Positions 26,030 through 62,000 of a stretch of DNA of 64,000 nucleotides are shown here, in pieces (the stretch's first letter is position 1; each line of letters opens with the position of its first letter). The notes under the pieces are model-generated. The model made no database searches, was not told the origin of the DNA, and saw only the letters and a list, made by a program, of their open reading frames with translations. This DNA comes from Tubiluchus corallicola (Eukaryota > Animalia > Priapulida): contig JAQGDQ010000145.1 of the NCBI GenBank assembly GCA_030141605.1, positions 372,001-436,000 on the forward strand. The letters are read 5' to 3'. Made by a program: the position numbers and the translations under genes.

Positions 26030-26285
26030 CTTCTTCTTTTCCTTCAAAGTCTCATTCCAACTATCGTAGGCATTGAGGTATCAACATTTATCATAGTATT
26101 CCACCCACTTCTATCTGCAGCTAACATCGTGTTCTTTTACTCCTAAAGATAGATTTGGTTGAAGTGGTTGAAATTCTTTATTTATTTTAGCTATTCAATT
26201 TGTTTTAGGTTTGGCAGGTGGTTTTTTGCAAGATTTTAAGGCTTCCTTTTAGGCGATTCTTACTGGTGCTTCATTCGTAATCTTA
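26030..26285 (-). mobile_element. 3' end of an older RTE-like LINE, split by the younger RTE insertion
   Basis: Translates EAPVRIA*KEALKSCKKPPAKPKTN*, continuing the RWLGHLLRL fragment that ends at about 29960. (GAA)n-like tail near 26030. Confidence 0.65.
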
Positions 26286-26332
26286 TCGTACATCGTACAA
26301 CGTCGAAGCCGATACGGCTAAATCAGTGCGAG

Positions 26333-28489
26333 TCAGATGTCCATGAAACCATCTCTTATCCACGACTTGAACCTTCTTGCGTATCCAAGCATCCATCTTT
26401 CTTCATCGAGTTTTTCGGCACAGTTGTTGACTAGGGATCTCCATGCAGGACGGTCGTGAACTGCGAAAGGCAGCTTGTCCAACTTTCCACCTTTCCTCAG
26501 AGAGAACTTCACCTTGCCCTTGAAGCGAAGGAGAGGACGACCAACACTGCGAGAGCCACTGGTTAGTTCTCCATGGAGAAGGGCCTTTGTCGGTCTCTTA
26601 TCGTTCATTCTGACCACATGCCCAAACCATCGAAGTTGAGCCTTAGTAAGCGTAACCTCGATATCTTCCATCTTGGCACGAGCCAGCACGTCTTCGTTTG
26701 GCACATAGTCGTCCCAGCGAATACGAAGGATGTGATGCAGATGTCTCTGCTGAACCGCACAAAGAGACCTGACCTGATCTTGATAGAGCGTCCACGTTAC
26801 CTGACCATAGGTAAGCTGCGGAATGATGCATTGCTTGTACACCTGCAGTTTAGTGGCGATGGTAAGGTCATGGTTATCGAAGACGCGTTTCCTGATACGG
26901 CCGAAAGAGCTGGCTGCAGCATTAATTCTTGCATGAAGCTCAGTATCCAATCGAGTATCTGAGCAGATGTAACTTCCGAGATATTTGAACCGTTGCACAC
27001 TTCCAAGCTGTTCTCCGTCAATGGTAAAATTGACACTGCCGCTAGAGCCGACACTCATTGTCTCAGTCTTCCTTTTGTTAATGCGCAGTCCCATTCTCTT
27101 TGCAGTTTCATTGTAAATGTCGATGAGATCCTGAAGGTCTTCCGGGTTGTCAGAGAAGATAGCTATGTCATCGGCATATTGCGCTTCACGCAGGAACATC
27201 ATTCGTGTCTTCGTCCTTGCTTTGAGTCGACGTAGGTCAAAAATGTCTCCATCATATCTGAATCGAACATGAATGCTCTTCGTCGAGCCAAGTCTGCCGA
27301 AGGCTACCTGCAAAAGGGCTGCAGCAAAAAGTCCGAAAAGAGATGGAGCTAACTTGCAGCCTTGTTTCACACCACTGTTGTATTCTACAGGATCACTAAG
27401 CTGGCCATTGACAGAGAGATGCGCTAGCATATCAGTGTGCAGAGCTTTTACCATACTTGTAAATCGATCTGGGCATCCACACTTTGAAAGCATCTTGTAC
27501 AGCAGTTCGCGATTGACACTGTCAAATGCCTTTGTAAAGTCGATAAAGGCAATATGCATTGATGTTCTATGCTCTCTCGTTTTCTCCATCAGCTGACGAA
27601 TCGTAAAAATACCATCAATGGTACTGCGATCCTGTCGATACCTTGACTGAGACTCTGGGTAGATACGCTCGAAAATCTTGTCCAGCCTAACGAGAAGAAT
27701 GTCTGCAAAAAGCTTTCCGACAACACTGAGTAAGGAAATGCCTCGATAGTTACCGCAATCACTGCGATCACCCTTTTTGAACAAAATGGTGATGTTAGCA
27801 TTGACAAAGTCACGAGGCATATCACCAGTCCTCCAAATAACGTTGAAGAGCTCCAAAAGATGATTCTGGAGAGAAGCACCGCCATGGATGAGAACCTCTG
27901 GTGGGACACCATCAGGTCCAGGGCTTTTCCGTCGCTTGATATGGTGAATAGAGTACTTGAGTTCCTCGAGGGTGACTAGTCCATCCACCTCGTCGATGGC
28001 TGGTAACTCAGGTATTTCATCCAAGATAGTAAAGTCAGCATCGGTAGTTTGATTCAGTAAAGTGCTGAAGTGCTCCATCCAACGATTCTGGATATCATTG
28101 GATGAGTTGAGAGTGTCACCAGCAATAGATTTGATAGGATGGTTACAACGCGATGTCGGACCATAAACGGCATTGAGAGAAGCGTAGAATTCCCGGAAAT
28201 TCTTCATTTGGGCGAGTCTTTCAACTTCATTGGCTCGGTCCTGGAACCACTGATTCTTCATAAGTCGGATATGATTTCTGAGCTCACGCCTGTTTTTCTT
28301 GTCCTTGACTAGTGCACCGATTTCAAGCTCGTTGAACCAGTCTCGGTTGCGATTTCCTTGTTTACCGAACACAGCATCTGCACTGTTGAGTAAGATTTCC
28401 TTGGTTTCATCCCAAGATGGTCTACAATCACTCAAAACATTGGCAAGATAAACTTGCAGTTTGGATTCTTTGCCTTCGAACTTCGACAT
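26333..28489 (-). CDS. RTE ORF, C-terminal part: reverse transcriptase, offset by one frameshift from the endonuclease
   Basis: Motifs KSPGPDG, NYRGISLL, FIDFTKAFDSV, GVKQGCKLAP, YADD, FKYLGS and LRWFGHVVRM. Confidence 0.93.
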   Translation of the reverse strand: MSKFEGKESKLQVYLANVLSDCRPSWDETKEILLNSADAVFGKQGNRNRDWFNELEIGALVKDKKNRRELRNHIRLMKNQWFQDRANEVERLAQMKNFREFYASLNAVYGPTSRCNHPIKSIAGDTLNSSNDIQNRWMEHFSTLLNQTTDADFTILDEIPELPAIDEVDGLVTLEELKYSIHHIKRRKSPGPDGVPPEVLIHGGASLQNHLLELFNVIWRTGDMPRDFVNANITILFKKGDRSDCGNYRGISLLSVVGKLFADILLVRLDKIFERIYPESQSRYRQDRSTIDGIFTIRQLMEKTREHRTSMHIAFIDFTKAFDSVNRELLYKMLSKCGCPDRFTSMVKALHTDMLAHLSVNGQLSDPVEYNSGVKQGCKLAPSLFGLFAAALLQVAFGRLGSTKSIHVRFRYDGDIFDLRRLKARTKTRMMFLREAQYADDIAIFSDNPEDLQDLIDIYNETAKRMGLRINKRKTETMSVGSSGSVNFTIDGEQLGSVQRFKYLGSYICSDTRLDTELHARINAAASSFGRIRKRVFDNHDLTIATKLQVYKQCIIPQLTYGQVTWTLYQDQVRSLCAVQQRHLHHILRIRWDDYVPNEDVLARAKMEDIEVTLTKAQLRWFGHVVRMNDKRPTKALLHGELTSGSRSVGRPLLRFKGKVKFSLRKGGKLDKLPFAVHDRPAWRSLVNNCAEKLDEERWMLGYARRFKSWIRDGFMDI

Positions 28490-29648
28490 TGAACCTCTTT
28501 GGTGGACGCTGAGGGCGAGCAGGTTTCTGTAGCATGAATGAACATTTGCACACCAACAATCTGTGATCCGTGAAACAGTCTGCAGTTAGACTTGCTTTGG
28601 TCACACGGATGTTGTTGTCACTCATGGTTTTCTTACAAGCCAAGATGTGATCAAGTTGATGCCAGTGCTTGGACCGTGCATGCTGCCATGTAGTCTTCAT
28701 CCTATCGTGAAGCCTGAAGAAGCTTCCAGTCACAGAGAACTCCATCCTGGCACAAAATTCTAGCAGTAGAAGTCCGTTTGAGTTCATGTTCCCTGTTCCA
28801 TGTTTGCCAAGCACACCTGGCCAAGTCATAGAATCTCTTCCTACTCTTGCATTCATGTCCCCTAGGATAATCACCTTGCCATCATTTGCAGCTTGCCTAG
28901 CATGAGCAGTGAGATTATCGTAGAAAGATTCTTTTTCATGATTGGAGCACTGCAAAGTGGGGCCATACACGCTAAAGAGAGTAAGAAAGGATCTGTCCTG
29001 TAGCCGAAGTTCCAACATCATGAGACGATCATTGATAGCTAAGGGCTGTGACTCCAATTGTAACTGGTTAGACACTGCGAAGCCAACTCCTGCAACCTGG
29101 TGTACACCTCCGCTCCAATAAATGGTATGGGTCTTCCCTACCACATTGCCTTCACCAGGGTGTCGGACTTCAGAAAGTGCGCAGATATCAATGTTGACGT
29201 CGTTTAGAGCTTCACAGATAATCACAGTGGCCCTCTCCGGCCGTAAATTTCCATTATTATCATTTGTGATTCTGACATTCCAACATCCTAAACTAAGGAG
29301 ATTCTTGGGTTGTGGGCTTCGCAAATTTCTCACCGTTGCCACTGGACGGCACGTCGGCTCCCCCGGACGCGGCAGCATAGTGTTGTCATCATTTGTCGTA
29401 GTCATCATCATGGAGAAAGAATTAGCACTGAGACGCTTGCGCGCGAGAAGAGATGGCCGCGCAAAGTCCACCTCCACTTGGCAGATAGAGTGTAGATCGG
29501 CGGCATGAAGAGACACGACGGCCGCACTCATAATCTGTTGCACCACAGTGAAAACAACCAGAAAACAGGCCGAATCGGCAAAATGAACTGCTAGCTTCTC
29601 GATGAGCCATGCCATGCCAGAAGACGAGTTGCCAGCCTTGCAAGCCAT
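28428..29648 (-). CDS. RTE ORF, N-terminal part: APE-type endonuclease
   Basis: Motifs GCWNVR, DICALSEVR, GVGFAV, SVYGPT, ILGDMNARVG, TTWQHARSKHWHQLDHIL and TDHRLL. The true start may be downstream of 29648. Confidence 0.9.
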   Translation of the reverse strand: MACKAGNSSSGMAWLIEKLAVHFADSACFLVVFTVVQQIMSAAVVSLHAADLHSICQVEVDFARPSLLARKRLSANSFSMMMTTTNDDNTMLPRPGEPTCRPVATVRNLRSPQPKNLLSLGCWNVRITNDNNGNLRPERATVIICEALNDVNIDICALSEVRHPGEGNVVGKTHTIYWSGGVHQVAGVGFAVSNQLQLESQPLAINDRLMMLELRLQDRSFLTLFSVYGPTLQCSNHEKESFYDNLTAHARQAANDGKVIILGDMNARVGRDSMTWPGVLGKHGTGNMNSNGLLLLEFCARMEFSVTGSFFRLHDRMKTTWQHARSKHWHQLDHILACKKTMSDNNIRVTKASLTADCFTDHRLLVCKCSFMLQKPARPQRPPKRFNVEVRRQRIQTASLSCQCFE

Positions 29649-29809
29649 GAACCATCATCCACACAAGCTGCTGCCCTTGTGCTTGGGTGCCTTCATCCGC
29701 TTTTACAGCCGTTGGGAGTGGAAGATTCCTCGTCCGCCTGTCAAACCGTTGAGGACTTCAGTCGTATCCCTGACCAAGGGTGGCGCGCTATACCCCGCAC
29801 CACTGGGTC

Positions 29810-29956
29810 CTTGCCTGAACTTAGTTACTGCTCCCGCAGCATCCACCCCCGCGACTAGGACGCGCCAGACAAGAGTTGCCCAAGTGCATCTAGAGAAGAG
29901 GGCTCTAGATACCAGAGGCCGCGTTAACTCCTCTGTGTGAAGCCAGAAGAGAAGGC
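29810..29956 (-). ncRNA. Predicted HDV-like self-cleaving ribozyme at the RTE 5' end
   Basis: P1 GCCUUC (29956-29951) with GGGGGU (29850-29845). P2 CUUGUCUGGC with GUUCAGGCAAG. P3 GCG/CGC. L3 UCCUAGU. GG available for P1.1. P4 UGCUGC-GGGA-GCAGUA. J4/2 ACUAA with the catalytic C at 29824. Folded by hand. Confidence 0.8.
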
Positions 29957-30250
29957 TCGTAATCTTAGAAGATGTCCTAACCATCTTAATTTTTGTATCT
30001 TGACTTTTGAACTCCAAGAAATTACTTTCGCTCTGATGTATAAATCTTCATTTTTGATTATGTATGGCCATCTTATCTTTAAAACTTTCCTAAGAAGATT
30101 TTTATAAAATATGTCAATTTGCTTTTCTTGAATAACTGTTAAATCCCAAGTTTCACTGTTGTACATAAATATGCTGGCAACGTGAGCATTAAATAATCGA
30201 AGTCTTACGTTAAGACTTAATTTCTTGCTAGTTAATACATTCTTGTGCTG
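29957..30250 (-). mobile_element. Upstream piece of the older RTE-like LINE (RT C-terminal region)
   Basis: YNSETWDLT...LLRKVLKIRWP..IKNEDLY...KLRWLGHLLRL. Confidence 0.8.
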
Positions 30251-30374
30251 TAGAAAAGCATGCGTTTGTTATATAATTATACTTTATTTATATTATTTAC
30301 ATATACACAAAACATGTTTTACGGTTTCATTTTGCGTGTTAGTACAAATGAAGATTGTGCATACTGCTTGCTGC

Positions 30375-30501
30375 ATGAGCGATTGGCCGGCGCATGCAAA
30401 CTTGCAAGGACATTATACGGTGGCTGCATCTCGTTTGGATTGAAGTTTCGACTCGAAGTTTCTCCAAGAACTAGCGTTTGTAATCCGGGCGTTGTTGCCA
30501 C
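30375..30501 (+). promoter_or_regulatory. Putative ETNK promoter and non-coding first exon
   Basis: CpG-richer patch with GATTGG (inverted CCAAT, 30381) and GCGCATGC (NRF1-like). It ends in a strong donor AC|GTAAGT at 30501/30502, with a matching acceptor before 31742. Confidence 0.5.
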
Positions 30502-30569
30502 GTAAGTTTGTTTTAATTCACCTTATAAAATTTAGTGTTATCGTGAAAAAGAAAAATTATATATATAAA

Positions 30570-31400
30570 ATCTTTATTCGTCTTATAAAAAATTTTGAAC
30601 ATCACAAATATTAATAATAAAAAAGATTACAACTGCATATGACATTCGTTAGAGTTATCACTATAGACACAGTGAGCATTGACATTTGCAACATACAGAT
30701 ACTAAATAAATCATTTTACATTTATAATATGTACAGATATTACATTAAAACATTTTGATTTTGCAAGATTACGGACGGGGGAAAATGTATCCACTGTGCA
30801 TATTATAAATATCGTCGTTTTGGTATACCACATATTCAATTCTAGTTAAAACGCATTTTTTAAATTCTGTTTTACAGTTAGATAAAGTTGTTAAATCCTT
30901 AACTTTTTTCGGTTAAAGTATTCTATAATGAGATAGCTTGCTTTGATAAAGAAGTATTTCCGTATTTGTTGTAATAGTTTATCAGTACGAGAGTTTAGTG
31001 TAGGTTTAGACTTTGTAAATTGGTGACTTGGTATTTAGTTGAGTTGGCCTCAAATTTGCCTTAAATAAGATGTACTAGCTGACATTTTAGAAAAATGTTG
31101 GTAAATTGTTTATTCCATGATAAAGTATTTTCTACGTGGATTCCAAAAATTTGGTTGTTTTCATTTGTGTAATTTCCATTTTTCCTACTTGTAAAGTTGT
31201 GTTGTTAGTATCATAAGTAAATGGAGATAAAACCATAAATTCTGTTTTACTCTCATTCATTTCTAAATTGAAGTAGTTAAAGCAACGTCAATATTTTCAA
31301 TGTCTTGCTGTAAATAGTGTTTTGCTATATTTTAAAGAAAACCGGATGATTCTGAAGACTACAATAGCTTTTTTTAAATCATAGTTTAGATTAAATAATA
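30570..31400 (-). mobile_element. Highly degenerate 3' fragment of a CR1/L2-group LINE
   Basis: Minus strand gives NKYGNTSLSKQAISL*NTL, resembling the C-terminus of the 43700-45945 element. AATAAA near 30572. Boundaries approximate. Confidence 0.45.
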
Positions 31401-43500: not shown

Positions 43501-46500
43501 TTTTTGATGATCTGATGTAAAATAAATTGGCAGATAGTTAGAGCACAAAAAATTACCTGTATGACTGCATGAGGAGATTGACAATTGGAGTACAGACTTT
43601 GAAATTGATCTACAGAAGTTAGACAATAAACAATTAAATATGGAAGTTAATTGATCCTGCTATAACAGTAACTGCTCTTGCAAAAGGAATAAAAGTTGTT
43701 CAGTAATAAGTTTGCAAGAGTTGACATTTATATAATTTACTTAAGTGACAGATACTAGTTGATTGCTTAAGATCATCTGAAAGAGTATTCCATAGAACTG
43801 TACCATTATGTTTTAAAGTTTGTAAACCTTTTGTTGTGTTAAATCTTTCTTGAAAATAGTTTTGTTTGGTAGCTGCTCTCGTAGAATACTGGTGAACGTC
43901 ACTAATCTTTTTGAAATAATTGCCGTATAATTTAGGTAGAATGCCCTTTTTATAGTTGAACATGAATTTCGCTAACTCAAGCTTATAAATTTCATTAATT
44001 TTTAATAATTGCAAAGCATAATAGGAGGGGGTAGCATGATCTCGGAACCCAGCAAAAGTCATTGTTTTGATAATTTTGTTATGTGCTGCTGTAAGTGGTT
44101 TCAAAACAGATTTTTTTGCTGTGCCCCACGATAAGATACAATAGTTAATGTGTGGGTACACAATGGCAAAGTAAATCATTTTTAGTATATCCGTGCTCAA
44201 GTAATGCCTCAATTTAAAAAATATACCTGTAACTTTGCTTACTTTGTAGGTAATATTTTTTATGTGTGTTGACCAATTAAGGGTGTCATCTATGTAGACG
44301 CCCAGATATTTTATGTCTGATACTTGTTCTAATAAACAGTCTTGCATGGATACTGTTATAATGGAGTTTTCATTGTTTTCAAATTTATTTCTTATGATCA
44401 TAAATTTTGTTTTATTATAGTTTACTGTTAACTTATTTGTACGCATCCATGTGTTAATTTTGATCAGTTCTTCATTACTTTTAAGCTCAAGATTTTGCGT
44501 ATCGTTGTCTGCTAAGAAGAGGTTAGTGTCATCAGCAAAAAGTCGTGTTTGCATGTTAGTACAAAGAGGGAGGTCATTTATATATATGAGGAAAAGAAGT
44601 GGACCCAAGGTGGATCCTTGAGGTACACCACATTGTATTGAGCATAAGTCAGAGGCAAAATTGTCAACTACCGTAAATTGGTGTCTGTTCGTAAGATATG
44701 ACTGGAATAGTTTTTGCGTGATTCCACGGATACCATAATAGTCCATTTTGTTGAGTAGAATGTCGTGTTGAACGGTGTCAAAAGCTTTTGTTAAATCAAG
44801 AAAGATGCCGCAGGTAAGTAATTTATTGTCTAGGTTTGTCAGAAGATTGTCTATGATTTCAGCAGTTGCTAATATTGTGGAATGATTTTTGCGGAAACCG
44901 AATTGAAAACACGATATTGTATCATTTTTGATTAAATATGTCATCAGGCGTTTATATAAAATTGACTCAAAAATATTGGCAATGGGTGATATGAGTGAGA
45001 TAGGTCGGTAGTTGTTCAGCTCGTTTGGATCATCTTTTTTATATATGGGGATTACTTTTGCCAGTTTTAAAGTGTCGGGGAATGTCCCAGTCAGAATTGA
45101 CGCATTAAACAGATTTGTAAGCGGAGCTAAGATTATGTTTTTTGACATTTTGAAATATGTAATTGGGATGTCATAAGGGCCTTTTGCTTTATTGGGATCT
45201 AGTCTATCAATAGCTTGGGAAATCTCGATTTCGCTAACTGGTGTGATATAGAAAGAATTTTCTTGGGGATGCATTAAATAGTCTGTATACTTACAGTTTT
45301 GGGGTTGTGTTATGCGTGATGCCAGTGATATACCAATGTTTGCAAAAAAACTGTTAAAAGCATTAGCTTTATGGTGCGGGTCGCATGAGGTTGTGCCTTG
45401 GTAACGAACTTTAGTTGGCATTATACTTGCTGTCTTTTTTTTAATTTTGAGAAGTTCATTGATACTGCTCCAAGTTTGTTTCATGTTATTTTTGTTTGCA
45501 AGCAAGATCTGGGAGTAATACTTCTTTTTGGATGCATGTTTGATGTGATTAAGTTTGTTAGAATATGTTTTATATAAATTTTGCTTATACAGTGAGTTGG
45601 ATAACTTGTATGTTGTATACATACGGCTTCTTGTTTTAATAGAATTGAGAATGCCGGGAGTGATCCATGGTTTAGCTATAGTTTTTGAGTTTTTCCTTGA
45701 TAACGTTTTGAGTGGGGCATGTTTGTCAAGTAATGTTTTAAACGAGTCCATGAATTGTGAGCAGTAAGAGTGTATGTCTGCTTCGCCATCATTCAGTGTT
45801 AGGTTACTTATATTAACTTGAAGCTCGCTTAAAAAGTTACCTTGATTGAATGATCTCGTACATCTGACTGTTTTTTTAATGTTGTTGTGCAGGAGATTAG
45901 TATTTCTTATAATGGCAAATACTGGCAAGTGGTCCGCAATAATACTGATTAAGCACAAAGTATACAGTACAGACAAAAAAGATGCTAATGACTAAATACA
46001 GAATGCACAGCACTGTAGTAACAAGCCGAGAACTTAGTAATAATACCACCAAGAGGAAGTGCGATTGTTAAATAGGTATGTGAAATAGGAAAAGATGGAC
46101 AAAGACAGTAAAAGACTGCTTGTGGTCTGTTATGCTAAAGAGCGAGATTTACAATAATCTATTACGAGCTGTGAAGCAAAATGCAGTTACAAAATCACAA
46201 CTTAGGCTATTAAATATAGAGAGTTTAATAGTTTAACGTTTGACTTAGATATTTTAGATAATATTTGTGCCTGTGCTGTGACTTCAGTTACTATCCATTT
46301 AAACTGAACCGATTCTCTATTTCAGTACTTACGTCCCTATGAACTCATACATTTATGTTAACATTTACGTTTAGCTGTGCTTTTGTGTCTTTATATTAAA
46401 CGGTTTGGTGCTCATAGTTGTGTCATTCTTAATTTAGAAGAGACTTTTAGTTACTAAACTGATAACTTATATTTGTTACAGGCAGCCCATTTCTTTTGGG

Positions 46501-51217: not shown

Positions 51218-53056
51218 ACAAGCAACTATTTTTCTGTTGTTTTACTTAATTATTAGTAGGCGCTGTTTGTCGAAATTTTTATAACTGTATTGAAGTAGAA
51301 TCTAAATAATTTAATTATTATTACATTTTCTGGCAATAGAATGTGGGGCATTATTTGGACAATAAACGTAAGCTAAATTTAATTGAACAAGAGATCACGT
51401 GGATCTCGTATAATGCGCATGCTCTGTAAAAAATCTATCCAGGTCAAAATGAATTGCAATGTTTTGCAAAATTTTAAGATTAGGTCAATTAAACTTTAAG
51501 TGTTTATTGTACGCAGCGATGGGTAAGCCAAATTGATTTATCTTCGATTTTTCATGTACGTATGATAATTTAAAGAAAAATTATTTTAAATGCTTTGATA
51601 ATCAAGATATTTTAACCATTTAATGTCATATTTTTGAGAGTTGAAATAGCTCACTCGGCTGTGATTGCGTTTAGTTCCTGGTTAGATTGCAAGCAAAAAA
51701 TTCGGGTAACTTGACGGAAAACAGCACCTTATTATTTGCGGTTTTAGATAATCTAGTTTATGAAACACAAGCTGGTTTCGGTTTATTTGTGATTTTAATG
51801 TTTTAATCTTTGAAATAAAAGAGCAAAATAATAAAAAGTGTATCTCCTGTCAGGGAATATAGAACAAAAGTCACACTAGCTATCAACTTGGGACATTAAC
51901 GTCTTGCTGAAAACAATAGGGAATGTATAATGCCTTCATAAATTAGGTGTAAAAGCCTTGCATGTTTTGCACAGGAGGAGCATGCTAGAAGCAGTAACTT
52001 GAAAACTCAAGTATTAATTTTTTTTCTACTGAATTGAATGGCCTGGGAATTCACGAGATCTCAATCATGCCAAACACAGTGGAGCTATCCTAAAAGAAAG
52101 AATGGATGCTAAAATGTTAAAAATGTTTAAACTCATGATAGATTCACTGTTGTTTGAGCAATATTTTGGTGCAATAAATTGTTTCATTAGTGTTATCACT
52201 CGATCATTTGAAGCTGAGGAATCTTTGTCACAAGCGTGTGTACAAATGTGTCGCAAACGTCACAGAATTTCACAGTTGGTTATTGTAACGTTAACACTTA
52301 ATTTTAGCAACAAAATAAACACTAACCTGTGTGGTGAGTCAGGTTGGCAAGTTCAATTGTACTGATATTGGCTGTATGGACCATAAAATTTAGCCAGACT
52401 GGGACTTCGAAGGCATTTATTGATGGAGCCTCAACTATCTAAACTGATAGATTGTTTCCATCAAGCGCATTAGTAACCCTGGTTTATATTGTTCAAATCA
52501 TATTATCTCATTTTTTAATAGTTCCTTATTGTGGCCCCTTAGATTCCTCATGATTCATTTGTCCATGATATGAGGCAGCAGTAGATTATTTACTGAATTT
52601 GTCGATGCTGCGTATATTTGTTTTCTTTTTCTTAAAGTCTAAGGATGGGATCTTGAGTGGCAATGGTCTTTCTGTATATTCCGTGTCTGGAAGCCACTTA
52701 ATTCAGATATTTTATTTGAAATCATAGAGTACTTAGATAATTAATTTTTATGCTTGAATGTTGAAGTTAAGATTTTATTCTTAAGTAAGTACTACAACTA
52801 CTATTAGAACAGAATATCTAGTGTGCAGCTTGGTGTTCCTGACAAACTGATAATTTTCGGGTGTATCTGGTAAGTTGTTGTATCATGACAAATACACAAT
52901 TGTTTAATGCACTTAAATAAAAAAAAAATACTCATTTTTTAGGGAGGCTAATATCTAGTTATGGTGTGCAATAGCCTAAAAAGTTGTTGAAGAATTGGAT
53001 GCCATGAGACATCTGTTTGTTGATGCTGAGAGCTAGTATTATGTTTGCTCACAAAG

Positions 53057-56000
53057 ATGGCATCATTAAGTGACGGGTCACATACAGTTCATCATGTGGC
53101 AAGTAATGCTGGCCGAGAGCAAATCTTATCACATACTGAAGTCAAGCGTTCTGTGCAAGCAAAACCGCAGATGGTTGTCATGCCAACATTGCATCAAGAT
53201 GCTGCAAAATTGCCAAATACTGATCAGACGCCTAATGTAACATCCAGCATTTGTGAGGGAGGTAGAATGGAAAGTGGAATTGCGCAGTGCGCTTATGAGC
53301 AGAATATTATGCTTCAGAATGCCACACATCACAGAGCTGTCACAAACTTGAACAAATCTTCGTCTGGTACAATCCAACACTATAAACCAGTTCTACAAAA
53401 GCCACCAGATATATGTCAGTCTTCTCATCGGAGTGGCATACGTCCGCCTCCGCCTTTGCTGCCGAGGATCATTGATAATTTCGGTGGTCAGCAGCAGCTC
53501 AGTCCCCGTCCACCAGTCTTTCAGCATCGTGTGATAGCACCATACACTCAACAGTTTAATCGTGGTCCAGTCCCGCCTCAGCAACAGTGCTTTTCACTAG
53601 GACAAATGGGTTTCAATATAAATGGACAAGCAGGGTTTGCCTTACCTGTGTCCCAAGTACAGGCGCCATATTTTAACACTTCCTTTGTAGATGCTTCTGC
53701 AGTTGGCAGGCCAATAGCGCCAGCAATAGTGCAAAGTAATTTTCCAAATGTTGGCTATATTCATAGTAACTGTGGTGCACCTTGCCAAGGACCCAACATT
53801 ATTCCAAATAATTTCAATGCCATTGCAGCATTAGGTATGGATCCACATGCAAGTCCAATGGTGTTGCAGACTGTTCCGTCTTCAGTGGGTGTTTTTCTGC
53901 CTCAAGGTAGTCTGATGGTGGCTCCAAATCCTCTTGTATTAAACAATGAATGTTTACCAACTTCAAATGTGCCACCTAATCGCATTGCTTCTGTTATTCC
54001 AAATAATACGGTGATAAATGACTTGCAAAAGCCAGTTCTTCCTAGTTTTGAAGGTTTGTCTGCTGCAGCTTGTTTGACCAATTCACAAAGGGATGCTACT
54101 TCTAAGCACAGTATTAATTATTCTTCTACGTGTGCTTCGTCACTCAATTTACCACTTGTACTAGAGGGAATGTCAGTAACATCAATGAAACAACTAACAA
54201 AACCACCAGTATCTATTAGCACTGCATCAATTGCTCCCCAGCCACCTTTAGTCACAGTACCGTTTGGGTGGAAAAGAATGTTGATCGACAATTCTATTGT
54301 CTACTGTAGGTAAGTGAGAATCCTAAAAAAATTCCTTTAGTTACTAGCCTTATTTTAAATTGATCTATTATAATTACAAAAATTGCTTACAATTTTGTAT
54401 AGTTTAGCTTTATAGTCAATTTGTGTGACACATTTTCATGTGCATTGTAGTTTCTGTGGTTTCAACTAATTATAAAAGCTAATTATGCCAATTATTATTT
54501 TCAGTCCAAGTGGAGTGTTCTTAACTTCAGTGGAGCAAGTTAAACAATACCTTCAGACAGCTGGAACTTGCAAATGTGGTCTAGAATGCCCTATGATCAT
54601 GAACAAATGTTTTAACTTTAATCCACATGTGCTCTCTGTACCATGGTGTCCTGGTGATTCGGCAACTAATGACGATTTAACAAAACTGTGCAACCACAAA
54701 CGAAAGCTGATCATTATGGCTAGTCTGCAGAATTCTGTGACTAACACACAGGTGCAATGTCAGTCAGTGTCATTGCAGGACACTAGTGTACACACATTGG
54801 GTAATGCCACACAGCAGCATTGTTCTACATATTCACATTCAGCTCAGTCAAAGAACAAAGGTATCAAGTCAGTATGTTAATATAAAAGTAGTATTGATGG
54901 TTCTAAAATAATTAGTTTCCATTTGGTTTCCGAGTGGGATATTTCTACCGAGTTTCAACTTGAAAATGGAGGCATTATTTATAATACGATATCCATCGTT
55001 GGAATATTTAAAATTTAAATGACACTGTCTGTTATGGGCTTCTACTGTAGATACCTGCTAGCAGACTATTTAGTATTAACTGCTGCATTGGCAGTGCACC
55101 AGGCCAACAGCCAGTAGGGATATAGCAGATCAAATCATATTTGCTGTAGGGGTGACTTACAAAAACAAACTATGATTTCTTTTCCAAGCAGTTAATTATC
55201 CAAATGAAATTGTTTATTATCCTTTAAAAACCTATTTCAGGCCACTAACAAAGATACGAATAAATGGATTGTTAAGTTTAACAGCACACAGAAAGGATAA
55301 TATAGATTATTTTATTGCCGTAATCCCTGTGCTGAATTAATAGTGCTCAGCCAAGTTTGCAATGAAGTACATGACATTACATGTATACATATATTATTTT
55401 GACTAGTGAATTCCTGTGTGTAAATTAATTTTAAATAATTTGTCAACATTTGTTTATCTTAAAATTTAAGTCATGTTTTTTCCTTATAGCCAAAACTAAG
55501 AAAGCAAGACAGAAACAGTCAAACCCCTATGACGGCATGCTGGTGTCAAAGTTATTAGAACAACGTGAAAAGATGGCAAAAGTTGCGGCAGCAGCTGCAG
55601 CAAGCCAAGTTGCCAGTAAAGCACAAGTTGACAGTGCAACAAGTATTGTGCCATCTTTCAGTACAAGTCCACTTAACACATCTTTAACATCAGATGTAAG
55701 TAAAAATATTATTGTCCAAAAAAGTTGAATTGTCTTTCATTTATAACTCTTATTTCTAATTTAGTAATTTGTTTTCAATAAATTTCTTCATTTTTGTCAA
55801 TGCAGTAATCGCCAATTGATAAAACCACTACAGGATCAGCAATTATTATGTGGTTACATGTTGTAAGCATGTGTATTTGGCGAAATACATAAGCAATATA
55901 TGCCGCACACATATGCTCAAGATGTTCACCTTAACTGATGTTAACTACATGCATCACTTTTATATTTTAACTGCACTACCAATTTTATGTGCATCTAGTT

Positions 56001-59000
56001 AGTTTTATCATTTATTTTTGTAACCAAGGAATACATGCAAACTTATTCATTTACTCAAATTCATTTTATTTAATCCCTATTTTTGGTTTTGCTTTTACGT
56101 ATTTAAAAATACGTTCTGTTGATTTGCACTGTTAGTAATTGTTAGAATTTGCACTGTTAGAATTCTCTTAGGAATTCACGTATTTTACACTGACACAATT
56201 CATTGTTTTCCATTAAATTTTCTTAACATCCTGGCCCTTGTAAACTTGTTTGCAAGTGGTGTAGGCAAGCCCGCATTTCTCAGACAGTGTCTTCTTTCGA
56301 AACCCAATGTTTTTTTAAAGTTCCATTTAGTATTCAAACTAGTCCTGGTTCAGCCATAACTGGTTCAGATTCAACAGCAATAGCCCTGCCTTCCAAATCC
56401 AAGTTAAATCATCCCTTTTTCCAACAAGTGACAATTGTGCTTGAAGAGACCTTTGTCCAAGCTCCAGATAACGTGAGCATAGTGTCAAGTAGACTGAGTT
56501 TTTAAGTGACATTCTTTCCAATTATTTAACTGTTCAGTCCAGTTTGCACCAGTCATCCACTGGTGTTACTGGAATTTTTTCATAAAACAGAAAAGTTTTA
56601 ACATTTTTGAAACACTGTAGATTCTGTGGTTTACCAATGATTATTAACATTTTTTCGCATTGTCCATACTACGACAAACAAGTACAGTCAAATGGTGCTT
56701 TGGCTGTTTTAAATCCATGACCATGTCAGTATTGTTCTCTGGCGACATCAGGTAAAGCTCTACAGTAAATCCTCGTTTTATCAACCTTAAAAATTTGAGA
56801 AGGCTGGTACAGTTTGAATATGTCATAGAGGTGCTCTGGTTTCCACCGATTTGCAATATCAACATCTGCTTCTGCAGCTTCTTAAACATCAGGTTATTCT
56901 GTTTTTTCCAACGTGTAAACCAACCGTCTTTTGCTTTAAAATCTTTTTTTGTCGTCGTGTAAACTGTAAACCAACCGTCTGTTGCTTTAAAATCTTTTTT
57001 GTCGTCGTGTAAACTGTAAACCAACCGTCTGTTGCTTTAAAATCTTTTCTGTCTATGTTTGTGCATTTTTTACTTTTTAGCACAAAATGGTTTGTTGGCA
57101 GGTGTATGTTTTGTTCTCACGCAGTCAAACCACTGTAGTAATCCAGTTTCTACATCCTTGTACTTTCCAGAATGATTTAATTTCTTTGTTTTTCCTCTTT
57201 CTCCCAAACGTTTCATTTTCCAGTAAACTTCCAGTTCAATAGGATGCGAGACCCCTCTAAAGTCTCAACTGCTTCCTGCTGGCTACAGGGTTGCAGCCCC
57301 TTAAATTTATCTAGGAACTCTAATTTCCACTGTCTGTACGTTTCTGTTCGCCTGGTGTAATTTTTAAGGGTTGTTCTACATTAATGAAGCAGTGAGCTAA
57401 TTTGCATGCCTTCTGAAGGACTTAGTTGCACAACAGCGATTCAGAAAACAGACTAAAATGTACTTCAGCATCTGCACACATGAAGTGGGTATGATGAAAC
57501 TATTGACTTGAGTTTTCAGTTTGACTTTGGCTAAAAAGCGAATCTAGGAAATGCAACAAATTTCGACGTAGCAAACGGACCGTGCCTGAAGGGTTCTAAA
57601 ATGCTGCTGGTTTTATTATCTGTGGTTTTATTAAGCGGCTACTACTGTATAAATAATTGTTTACTTAATACAAGGATAGAATAACAAATGCACTTGAAAT
57701 TGTCTGATCTTAATTATTAATAATTAATTTGTTTGCTGAGGTGGTATTTGTTAATTGATATATTGCTTTATGTTTAGATTATATCGGAGAAATCGCTCTT
57801 GGAAAATGTGTCAAGTTTTGCACAGCCTAGGTCTGCATTACCCACCGTGTCTTTTAGTACCAACACGTCATTCTCTGCTTCGGAAGCAACGTCTTTTCGT
57901 AATTCTTCAATTTCACATACTGGCAATCATGCATTAAACCGAGTGAATGGTGACAGCGCTGCTATACAGAATTTACAATCAAGCGTAAATCCTTCTCATG
58001 TTGATGAATCTAGTTTGTGTAAGGATAAAATCTCCGAAGAATCAGGAGCCAAAGTTGTGACAGAACTTGTTTCTAAGTCAAAGAGAGGGCGTAAGAAGCG
58101 AAAGGCAAAGCTACAGGCAAAAGTTCAAAGAAAGCAACAATGTCCTAATGTAGATGTTCGTCAGCTTTTACAGGAAACAATGCCAATAGTTCATACTACA
58201 GTGTCTTTCTTAGAAAACCCAACAGCTTACCTTGCCCAACAGACAGCTTTGTTGAACCAGTCGATGTCTTCTCAACAACAAAGACCTTTCACGCCCAGCT
58301 GTGATACAAAGCCAAGTGCACATGTATCATCTCCTACTTCTCTGCCTGCTGTACTACACCCACATAGACAATCACACACGAATGTCATGACATACACTGA
58401 TAATGTCTGTTCAGAAAATGACAGCAAAACAAATTTTACTGGTAATTCTTCTTCTGTGACTCTGGTATCAACCGAATGTAGTGTCAGCTTTCCGGCAAGT
58501 AGTTTGTTGACCGCAGCTGCGCGAGGAGCAAAATTAGCGCATGCACACGGTGCTGTGAAACAGTCGTCTCTGAAGAGTATAGTGACAAGATTACCTGAAA
58601 CTAATATGAATGAACTACATCCTGTGATTAACCCTAGAGTTTTATTGAATCCGGATATTTCAAAATACTGTGATTGTGAGTTGAGTAACTGTAGAGATGA
58701 AATAGGCTTCTTATGTGATCAGGAGAGCCTAACGTGTAAAGTTGAATGTGCCTCAAAGACCAAAACTTCGTCATCTTTAGACTTGGCACCTCCTGTCATA
58801 GTTACGTTAGAGTCTAAATGTTCCCGAGCATCTCAAAATCAAGCAAGTTTTTTTGCTTCTTCTTGCACAACCTCTGCTACAAATATTAAAAATTTTGTCA
58901 GTGTAACCACTGCTTCTGCAATGTCATCGCCAATAATCTCTACTAATTTGACGACATTAGCTGCTACACTGTCAACAACGACTGTTGTTACAAATAGCAT

Positions 59001-62000
59001 ACCGAGAGTCATACCAGCTTTGGAAGAATCACAAACAAAAAACCTTCCCGTGGGTACAACAAATAACACTAAGCATGCTTTTAGATCTAATGCAATGTTT
59101 GTGCAAGATTTACAGCCTACTGAAATGCAAAGCTTTGCCAGTGATGGACCTGTACCTCAATCTCTGAACATGTTGGCACAACCTAATTCTTTAACAATGC
59201 CTAATAACATAAATTATCCAAATGCTGATTATGATGCTATTAATATGTCAGGAAATGAATTGTCGCACACACTTCATCAGAATTTTTCTTTGCCTGCAAG
59301 TGGTCATCTTTCGGGAAACTTGACTTTTAATGGTAGCCAGGAAAACATTCTTTCTGAAGAGTCGTTCATTCAGCAAGGTATGTGTGGTCAGCAGATGGAA
59401 GGAATGATACCTCATCTAATGCCTTCTCAACATCTATCTAGTCATAATTTTGTTCCCATGGACTGCCAGAATTTTATGTCAGAACAATACCTTTCTGATA
59501 CACAACAACGTGGTACTAAAAGGAAGCAAATGAATAATCAGATGGCAGACAGCATAGCTGGAGTTTTACAAGCAAACTCCGTACCATCTCAGCAGGTAAT
59601 GTTGGTAACTCCTCAACAACCAGCTCCACAGCCACAGCTGGGTGTTGTGCAGCATGGTTTGGTGTTGTCAGGTACTGTTACTCAGCAGCAAAGTCAGTTG
59701 TTGCCTCATAATATTCTAATACCTAATCCGGATTCAATGGTTCAGCAGCAACAGCAGCAGGTTGTCCTGTGTCAGCCAACGCTTGCTCCTGATATGCAGG
59801 GAATGATGGCTAATATTCAAGGGACACCTTTGCCGCAGTTCTCACAAAATCAATCTCAAATACCCGGAAGTGACCCAGTAGCTCAGCAAAACATGATGAT
59901 ACAAATGTTACTGCAGGCACTGCTGAATGCAAATCCTAATTTGGATATTCAGAGTGTTCTTCCTAGTCTACAGAATATTGTTACTCAAACACTCGGACAA
60001 AATTCTCAATTTGGCCAGCAGTTAATAAGCAATGCTGGAAATTTCATTAGTGGCATGCAGGTTAATTCAGCTGCCCCATTGATAGCTCAACAGCAGCCAC
60101 TCATGTATGGTAGCATGCAACTTCTTCAAGGTGGTACAGTTGTTCCTCAAGTTGATCCGCAACAATTCCTGCAACAACAACAGCAACAACACTTTATGCA
60201 GCAGCAACAACAACAGAATGTTATGTACAACACTGGTCAGTTTATGTCTGAAGATTATTGTCTGCTTGGTGCCGGGAAGGATGGACCACAATTGACTCCA
60301 CAAGCTATGTTAAGGCAGCTGATGATAGGAGGAAGCCAGGATCCAAGTGGCCCTACAGGAACTATGCCTCCATCCACTCAAGTAAGACTTGTTAAATTTT
60401 TAATGATTCTGAAAAAAATTGATGATGTTAAAGCTTGTGTTGTTAGTATATGTAAGAGAGTAGCTGTCATTTTTTCTTTTTAACTCTCACCTAGAAATGA
60501 TTTGCACTTGCTTTGCTAGGACATATCATGTTTTATTAGGTTTTGACCAGCTGGACATTGTGTTAGTTTCATCAGCTTTTTTATTAAAGGAAAACAGGAT
60601 AATTTTTCATATTCTACCTAGTTTTGAAGTACTGTAAAAAGTATACATTTTAAAATCTATAATAATAGCAAAGCATTTCTGATAATTAAATAATAGGTTA
60701 AAAACTTAATTAATGGTTGGTGAACCCAACTAGTGATGATGTCACAACTGAATGTAATTATCAATAGCACAAGCATTCCATGAGCGTGTTGCACGTGTTT
60801 ACAAAAGGGAAAATTGAAGTACAGTGATACTGTATAACAACATTCGGTGCGATATACAAAAAGTTGGCAAATTTTAAGTTTAAAATTTAAATTTCAAGTT
60901 TACAGCTGTGCTCACGTATGAGATTTCAAACGTGTGTACTATGTCACAATCGAACGCCTTTAAACTGAGAGGTACCACACCTGTTTTCCATGCAACATGT
61001 TGCATAGATTCAGATGCTAGTGCCCATCTATCTAGCAAAATTACTCTTGTGCGGCAATAATTCTTTCAGGTAAGCCTTTCTTGAAAAAATAGCTTGTTCT
61101 CTTTCCATATTTTATATATTTCGCTGTTTTGAGCTATAGTTTAAGTTTTTCTTTATAAGAGTAACATTTTCGTTGTAACACATTTCACACTTCATGTTTT
61201 TTTTACCGCAGGTGATCTTAGCGAATGGTGCAGCTCAACCAGTAAATGCACTTAATCCTATTCCTGCACAGAACAGTTTCACCTCCAACACATTTCTTGT
61301 GAGTCATCAAACAGTTATTCAGAATATTCAGCAACCGTTACACAATGTAGTCGTCGACCAAGGTGTCACTGCCAGTTTATTGTCAGGTAGTACTTCTGGA
61401 TTTATTCCGCAGCCAAGTAATATTGGAGTCGTAGGAGTGTGTCCAAGTACGGAAACTCCTGTCATGACTACTCCAGCGGCCACCTTATCTGAATCTATTA
61501 AAAATGACAAAGATGTAGTACCAAACCGTGAATCTGTTTCCAGTTCGCTTAGTTCTGATTTTTCCGAGAGTGGGGAGGTTGTAGCTTGTGATCGACAGTC
61601 AACTAGCCGAGATTCAGGTACCTCGTCTCAAGGCGATGATGCAGGAGAAATTGGAAACAAAGTCCTAGATGGCAAAAGCCAAAGTTCTGATTCTGGGCTA
61701 GAAACAACTCCTCAACATATCCAAGATGATGACATGCTACAGGACAATGAATCAGTAGTCTCTCTTAACAACAATGTGCCCACTGACATAAAACTGAAGA
61801 AAGTTCATCGTAAGGGATGGAGTGGTGTTATTGTTGCTGGTATAACTGAGGTGGGTGGTAGGAATGATGATGATGAGGATGATGATGATGATGATGCTAA
61901 TCACACAAGCGACGACGGAGAATCACAAAGTGAAGGTATAGCATTATTTTTTTAATTTAGTTTGGCATTTTGCAAGTCACCATTTATGACTCTATAGTAT

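What the first reader, a model, noticed from the sequence alone, without database searches (positions are those of the whole stretch)
29810..29956. HDV-like ribozyme whose predicted cleavage site is exactly the first base of the RTE element
Seen: all elements of the nested double pseudoknot occur in the correct order on the minus strand. These are G1 pairing with U at the base of P1, a long J1/2 insert with its own hairpin (AUCUAGAG/CUCUAGAU), a roughly 10-bp P2, P3 GCG/CGC, L3 UCCUAGU (HDV has UCCUCGC; the U20/G25 pair and CC are kept), GG for P1.1, a P4 capped by a GGGA tetraloop, and J4/2 ACUAA. G1 (29956) directly abuts the 11-bp TSD, which defines the element's 5' end independently. Established: R2, L1Tc and some RTE elements use HDV-like ribozymes to process their 5' ends. 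Inference: this is an unannotated member of that class. Caveat: P1 is only 6 bp with three G-U pairs.
Basis: partly seen in the sequence, partly recalled or inferred. Interest (0 to 1): 0.8.

Follow-up and report, generated by a model that had tools for sequence, protein, structure and literature searches.

The report
Self-cutting RNA heads an RTE retrotransposon
A jumping gene in this animal genome begins with a hepatitis-delta-type RNA fold that is backed by matched base changes in a relative and likely cuts the element's RNA free at its first base, a known trick, although the same RNA head turns up on a distantly related element and may have been swapped between lineages.

Summary
Confirmed. 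The minus strand at 29956-29809 holds every HDV-like element in order. It is the only such core on either strand of the window, and 0 of 5000 shuffles reproduce it. An 11-bp target duplication abuts G29956, and other copies of the family start at 29956/29957 behind different flanks. One metagenomic RTE relative (L002) carries a homologous head: of 50 predicted pairs, 12 change on both sides, 5 on one side and none break, and its P1 starts at the aligned G. A 6-bp P1 is normal for the family. Cleavage is untested and Rfam gives no hit. HDV-like heads on RTE elements are published, and this scan has noted them before on other DNA (155 findings), so this is a new member of a known kind. One extra: L002's reverse transcriptase lies in another clade (AU p 3e-10), and only its first ~280 nt resemble the window. 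That hints at ribozyme heads swapped between RTE lineages, but rests on one contig.

The parts
29809..29956 (-). HDV-like ribozyme fold (P1, structured J1/2, P2, P3/L3, P1.1, P4, J4/2); predicted cleavage between 29957 and 29956
29951..29956 (-). P1 5' strand; G29956 is G1 and the first base of the element
   Evidence: L002: one double and two single changes, all still paired
29929..29950 (-). J1/2 hairpin 1 (7 bp)
   Evidence: 3 double and 1 single change in L002; register set by hand
29875..29928 (-). J1/2 domain 2: short closing helix 29928-26/29877-75 around hairpin 2 (29918-29879). Its loop and closing G (29903-29898) can also pair with the P1 3' strand.
29864..29874 (-). P2 5' strand (partner 29820-29809), 11 bp with a 1-nt bulge
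   Evidence: 4 of 11 pairs change on both sides, none break
29843..29863 (-). P3, L3 (UCCUAGU), P1 3' strand and P1.1 GG
   Evidence: no differences listed here in the second same-species family
29821..29841 (-). P4 hairpin and J4/2 with the putative catalytic C29824
   Evidence: C kept in the window, the second family and L002 while the next base varies
29780..29803 (-). conserved hairpin just 3' of the ribozyme, with a GGUAUA-type loop
29957..29967 (-). 5' copy of the 11-bp target-site duplication
26275..26285 (-). 3' copy of the target-site duplication
26286..29956 (-). full-length RTE-type non-LTR retrotransposon, 3671 nt, ending in two TGTACGA repeats (26299-26286)
28500..29411 (-). ORF part 1: AP-type endonuclease (Pfam PF03372); start at 29411 inferred
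26333..28471 (-). ORF part 2: reverse transcriptase (PF00078), in another frame; one frameshift near 28500-28471 in this copy
29957..30238 (-). host sequence: decayed C-terminal piece of another, abundant non-LTR retrotransposon, which resumes after 26275
   Evidence: (empty-site loose ends at 29959)

Best explanation
The first 148 nt of this RTE-type retrotransposon match an HDV-like nested double pseudoknot that likely cleaves itself between 29957 and G29956, releasing the element's RNA from a read-through host transcript, which would explain why full-length copies start at this G. Shown here: the sequence elements, their covariation, the target duplication and the shared 5' end of copies. 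Inferred from HDV-family chemistry (recalled, and PMC4908430): C29824 and a Mg2+ ion promote attack of the 2'-OH of base -1, and the two-hairpin J1/2 domain together with the 11-bp P2 holds P1 and P2 side by side, as the structured J1/2 of Agam-2-1 does. Also inferred, by analogy with R2 and L1Tc (PMC6765202): the cut RNA is uncapped, the fold protects its end and may help translation of the ORF about 545 nt downstream, and target-primed reverse transcription copies it to G1. This copy has a frameshift between endonuclease and RT, so it likely could not make its own full protein.
For: (1) Only one descriptor core in the window; 0 of 5000 shuffles. (2) L002 head: nhmmer E 4.7e-25. Of 50 window pairs, 33 are the same, 5 change on one side, 12 on both sides and 0 break, and 3 window mismatches become pairs; in the 28 core pairs, 5 double and 3 single changes, 0 broken. 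On the MAFFT alignment without P1: 97.6% of cells paired, 8 double changes, 2 of 500 shuffles as high, slid controls 25-46% paired. (3) A second family in the same runs shares 29777-29880. Its 7 listed differences fall in the P4 loop (4), one P4 pair that stays paired (U-A to G-U), and the base after the catalytic C (read by hand). (4) Copies begin at 29956 or 29957 behind different flanks (X1 records 6, 7; X2 record 10; X3 records 12, 15, 16, 17). One X1 contig joins an inverted piece that ends at 29956 to the element's own interior. (5) Empty-site contigs of the host repeat leave the window at 29959 and continue with the sequence found after the 3' duplication. (6) A looser core plus P2 occurs upstream of 5 of 29 RTE relatives, against 0 of 29 on the reverse strand, 0 of 29 inside ORFs and 2 of 290 shuffles. 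In L058 a 10-11-nt duplication abuts the predicted G1.
Against: No cleavage or RNA data. No HDV-family Rfam match for the window or for 8 related loci. Covariation rests on one full homolog, and some registers were set by hand with both sequences in view. P1 is weak (-5.3 kcal/mol), and two internal hexamers pair more strongly with the same 3' strand (-6.4 and -8.1). The nested fold alone is no more stable than shuffles (z -0.58). 7 of the second family's 14 differences are not listed, so part of P2 5' is unchecked there. One contig (X4, depth 22) lacks a G in the P1 3' run, though X2 and X3 of the same sample do not. No duplication was found at L002's G1 or in 3 other loci, and L028 was uninformative. 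The strict descriptor hit only 1 of 34 relatives.
Confidence: 0.85

Rival explanations
1. The fold is real but no longer cuts, or cuts too slowly to matter. The 5' end is set by an internal promoter that starts at the first base, and the pseudoknot serves only as an end-protecting or translation element.
For: Weak P1 with three G-U pairs. Some non-LTR elements use internal promoters (PMC3774820 introduction passage). Some R2 folds did not cleave in vitro (same paper).
Against: The active-site letters (G1-U, L3 U/C/G, J4/2 C and A) are kept in the window and in L002 while stems change; a purely structural role would not require that. G1 coincides with the element end here and in L058.
Confidence: 0.08
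2. The working P1 uses the internal hexamer at 29903 (or 29919), so the RNA is cut inside the 5' UTR or is trapped in a misfold.
For: The 29903 duplex is the strongest (-8.1 against -5.3 kcal/mol), and five of its six bases lie in an open loop. The 30 upstream letters seen for the second family hold a similar hairpin with a pyrimidine loop.
Against: G29903 is paired in hairpin 2 (unpaired probability 0.02). Neither internal site is kept in L002, while the 29956 register covaries. No copy start at 29903 or 29919 is listed.
Confidence: 0.06
3. A chance arrangement in a GC-rich 5' UTR.
For: No Rfam hit. The 21-nt core pattern alone matches 36 prokaryote genomes, apparently by chance.
Against: 0 of 5000 shuffles; 17 of 17 changed pairs stay paired. 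None of the 36 prokaryote loci gave an nhmmer match to the head at E<=1.
Confidence: 0.01

Closest known systems
[quoted passage not shown] 2011: not held; seen only as cited in passages of PMC5786205 and PMC6765202)
   Same: Same topology, same place at the first base of an RTE-type element, same proposed job of releasing the element from a co-transcript.
   Different: This family's sequence has no Rfam match. I could not read the 2011 paper to see whether a homologous head is listed there.
Agam-2-1 large HDV-like ribozyme of Anopheles gambiae (PMC4908430: outline with abstract, results section, figure legends)
   Same: Structured J1/2 domain and an extended P2 (12 bp there, 11 bp here); 6-7-bp P1.
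   Different: J1/2 here has two hairpins and only a 3-4-bp closing helix. No Rfam match. I saw no figure or supplement for a direct comparison.
R2 ribozymes (PMC3774820: passages and section 16) and the L1Tc ribozyme (passages in PMC6765202)
   Same: 6-7-bp P1, variable J1/2 and P4, conserved catalytic C.
   Different: R2 inserts site-specifically in 28S rDNA and often takes P1 from the target. Here P1 is wholly element-encoded and copies have different flanks.
RTE-clade LINEs such as AdLINE3 (PMC5850137: passages)
   Same: One ORF of about 1000 aa with AP endonuclease and RT, 3' tandem repeats instead of poly(A), duplication within 8-20 bp.
   Different: No named RTE reference was available for a tree. 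The named relatives seen are uncharacterised proteins of a jellyfish, a sea anemone, a coral and a lancelet.

Membership tests
HDV-like ribozymes | Five helices P1, P1.1, P2, P3, P4 in nested double-pseudoknot order | tested here: met
HDV-like ribozymes | P1 of 6-7 bp that starts at the cleavage-site G (G-U wobble, recalled) | tested here: met
   6 bp, G-U in window and L002; length range from PMC4908430 and PMC3774820
HDV-like ribozymes | L3 with U, C and G at the active-site positions (consensus recalled) and P1.1 | tested here: met
   UCCUAGU in the window, UCCACGA in L002; two C-G pairs in P1.1
HDV-like ribozymes | Catalytic C and constrained A in J4/2 | tested here: met
   C-N-A-A kept in 3 of 3 lineages seen, N = U, C, G
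HDV-like ribozymes | Stems supported by covariation | tested here: met
   12 double, 5 single, 0 broken of 50 pairs; one full homolog only
HDV-like ribozymes | Mg2+-dependent self-cleavage 5' of G1, lost on C-to-U | not testable with these tools
   needs an in vitro assay
Rfam-curated HDV-type families (by covariance model) | Match to a curated model | tested here: not met
   no such hit at E<=10 for window 28500-31000 or E<=1 for 8 loci; so not filed under any specific Rfam family
Agam-2-type large HDV-like ribozymes | Structured J1/2 (P1.2) with extended P2 | tested here: inconclusive
   structured, covarying J1/2 and an 11-bp P2, but two hairpins and a short closing helix; no direct comparison with Agam-2
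RTE-clade non-LTR retrotransposons | Single ORF with AP endonuclease and RT, about 1000-1060 aa | tested here: met
   Pfam; relatives are single ORFs of 987-1079 aa; this copy has one frameshift
RTE-clade non-LTR retrotransposons | 3' tandem repeats, no poly(A), target duplication of 8-20 bp | tested here: met
   two TGTACGA units and an 11-bp duplication
RTE-clade non-LTR retrotransposons | RT groups with named RTE references in a tree | not tested
   no named RTE sequence among the hits; trees hold unnamed relatives only

The most novel reading that the evidence does not exclude
The ribozyme and the hairpins after it form a portable head of about 280 nt that has moved between RTE lineages whose proteins are only about 41% identical. 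L002 carries this head (104 of 160 aligned ribozyme columns identical), but the rest of its UTR, its endonuclease and its RT belong to another clade whose sampled members show no match to this head. Self-cleaving heads would then be swappable parts that reset an element's 5' end, much as L1 lineages replace their promoters (recalled).
Probability: 0.35. Interest if true: 0.6.

Novelty: new member of a known kind. Interest (0 to 1): 0.35.

Why it matters
It adds a well-supported, Rfam-invisible family of large HDV-like ribozymes with a two-hairpin J1/2, ready for a simple cleavage assay. It also gives genomic evidence that RTE 5' ends are set at G1. RTE UTRs are being engineered for gene insertion, and HDV-type 5' modules are used in R2-based tools (PMC13708176, passages), so natural variants are of practical use. 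If the head swap holds, it would show how promoter-less LINE lineages gain and exchange their 5' processing module.

Tried and rejected
No whole genome is held for this window, so copies were seen only through Logan contigs of 4 runs from at most 2 samples; contig depth was not used as a copy number. No RNA holder was listed. Rfam gave only chance hits. Viral contigs gave 0 pattern hits and 0 protein relatives. The 36 pattern hits in prokaryote genomes were rejected as chance: none matched the head by nhmmer, and 11 of 36 passed a very loose P2 test, which shows that this test alone is weak. A two-sequence covariance model found only its own two training sequences among the window and 59 loci. 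Pairing of the element's 3' end with its 5' region, a lead from earlier notes, was not significant: 24 of 40 shuffled tails did as well in the window, and 4 of 30 in L002. Insertion at one fixed site in the host repeat was not supported: the one long alternative flank seen (X1 record 7, X2 record 10) differs from the window's. I first read the variant contig as a subfamily of this element; one search shows a separate element that shares the ribozyme core and the next stretch. The careful tree search did not finish, so quick trees were used; L058 was left out because its match was short. A sequence look-up in earlier findings returned nothing. Five paper searches showed no paper on this family or on ribozyme-head exchange in RTE elements; the library lacks most subscription papers, and no supplements were read.

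Full report
Observation. A descriptor written after seeing the sequence finds this one core on the two strands of the window. It finds none in 5000 shuffles of the first 300 nt, 300 shuffles of the element or 20 shuffled windows. The same call shows three G-started hexamers able to serve as the P1 5' strand (29956, 29919, 29903). Rfam gives no HDV-type hit, and the nested fold alone is not unusually stable (z -0.58), as expected for a pseudoknot.

The element. TAAGATTACGA occurs twice, at 29967-29957 and 26285-26275, flanking 3671 nt that end in two TGTACGA repeats. The element encodes an AP-type endonuclease and an RT in two frames, with a shift near 28500-28471. Its closest relatives are single ORFs of about 1000-1080 aa at 50-56% identity. 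This architecture matches the description of RTE elements in PMC5850137 (passages); no named RTE reference was at hand for a tree. The element sits inside a decayed piece of another abundant retrotransposon. Contigs of that repeat leave the window at 29959 and continue with the sequence that follows the 3' duplication, which confirms the empty site. The organism is an AT-rich eukaryote; the named relatives seen come from marine invertebrates.

The 5' end in other copies. In four runs from at most two samples, contigs of this family stop or branch at 29956 or 29957. X3 record 12 starts at 29956; X3 records 15-17 and X1 records 6-7 end at 29956 or 29957; X1 record 7 and X2 record 10 carry a 78-nt flank unlike the window's. 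Some copies share A at -1 and others do not, so the common start is G29956. One 65-nt contig (X1 record 3) joins an inverted piece ending at 29956 to the element's interior at 29805. This looks like a 5' inversion whose cDNA ran to the RNA's end, but it is a single low-depth contig.

Covariation. One of them, L002, passed the strict descriptor and matches the head at E 4.7e-25. Its G509 aligns with G29956. Of 50 window pairs, 33 are unchanged, 5 change on one side, 12 on both and none break, and 3 window mismatches become pairs. P1 shows one double and two single changes; P2 shows four double changes. The registers of P1 and hairpin 1 were set by hand. On the unedited alignment without P1, 97.6% of cells pair, with 8 double changes; 2 of 500 shuffles reach this and slid controls pair 25-46%. 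Neither internal P1 candidate is kept in L002, and G29903 is locked in a hairpin, although its duplex would be the strongest. A second family in the same runs shares 29777-29880 with 14 differences, 7 of them listed. Four are in the P4 loop, two turn a U-A pair into G-U, and one is the base after the catalytic C. One X4 contig lacks a G of the P1 3' run; X2 and X3 of the same sample do not show this.

Generality. Among the 29 loci with at least 300 nt upstream, a looser core occurs in 7, and with P2 in 5. Controls give 0 of 29 on the reverse strand, 0 of 29 inside ORFs, and 9 and 2 of 290 shuffles. In L058 a 10-11-nt duplication abuts the predicted G1; L002 and three others showed none, and L028 lies in a microsatellite.

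Mechanism. Most likely the element is read through from host transcription, and the ribozyme cuts 5' of G1, giving an uncapped RNA whose end is the element's end. The chemistry and the role of C29824 are inferred from the family. PMC4908430 (results and legends) shows that a structured J1/2 plus an extended P2 speeds Agam-2-1 by up to three orders of magnitude; the two covarying hairpins and the 11-bp P2 here would plausibly act the same way. A 6-bp P1 is within the norm. A role in translation is proposed for R2 and L1Tc (PMC6765202 passages) and is untested here.

What is known. RTE, R1, R2, R4, Ingi and LOA elements are reported to carry 5' self-cleaving ribozymes (PMC5786205 passage; PMC6765202 passage). 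The primary paper is not held. The scan's own index lists 155 earlier notes with these words in at least 35 genomes, none with a look-alike sequence. This is therefore a new member of a known kind.

An unexpected side result. L002's RT is 41% identical to the window's and falls in a different clade. Holding it with the window's clade is rejected (AU p 2.9e-10, 24 rows, quick tree; the group was named after the first tree was seen). Among 34 upstream regions, L002's ribozyme part matches only the window, and its next 125 nt match the window, L052 and L054. Its two later UTR blocks match 13 and 21 other loci but not the window, and its endonuclease is up to 59% identical to other loci against 42% to the window. 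The window's later UTR matches no locus. This mosaic suggests that the head moved between lineages. Against it: one contig, which could be an assembly chimera joined at a conserved motif; some clade-mates are too short to show their heads; deep conservation is not excluded; and the heads of the window's own RT clade were not available. I put it at 0.35.

Verdict. Observation confirmed, interpretation supported, cleavage untested. Interest 0.35.

Noticed in passing
window 29803-29780 (-); L002, L004, L014, L015, L025, L043, L058: A hairpin with a GGUAUA/GCUAUA-type loop follows the ribozyme in the window and L002, with covarying stems. The loop motif recurs upstream of several distant RTE relatives (10 motif hits in the upstream regions of 34 loci, some by chance). 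It may be a protein-binding or translation element.
   Followed up: partly
window 29804-29805: Two copies break just 3' of P2: a 5'-truncated copy at 29804 (X3 record 13) and an inversion junction at 29805 (X1 record 3). This hints that reverse transcription stalls at the folded ribozyme.
   Followed up: no
L002 509-790 against 791-1290: Mosaic 5' UTR: the head resembles the window, the rest resembles another RT clade.
   Followed up: yes
runs X1-X4, contigs matching window 29777-29880: A second element (4081-nt contig in X1) shares the ribozyme core but has a different J1/2 with an analogous hairpin.
   Followed up: partly
window 29922: The other copies that cover this place, and L002, have C here (minus strand), so this copy carries a private change in the J1/2 linker.
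   Followed up: yes
window 29380-29345 (-): An N-terminal motif seen in relatives (ATASG.TD.P) appears in a different frame from the open ORF start, suggesting a compensated frame change or constraint at the RNA level.
   Followed up: partly
window 43700-45991 (-): A second, unrelated non-LTR RT ORF of 763 aa (PF00078); L2/CR1-like by recall.
   Followed up: partly
window 53030-61955 (+): Three long exon-like ORFs of a host gene with no Pfam hit above cut-off. Motifs recall MBD5/6-type proteins (from memory, untested).
   Followed up: partly
L010, L012, L028, L058 upstream regions: Other HDV-like cores 720-810 nt upstream of RTE endonuclease matches, several with a one-pair P1.1; none has an HDV-type Rfam hit.
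   Followed up: partly
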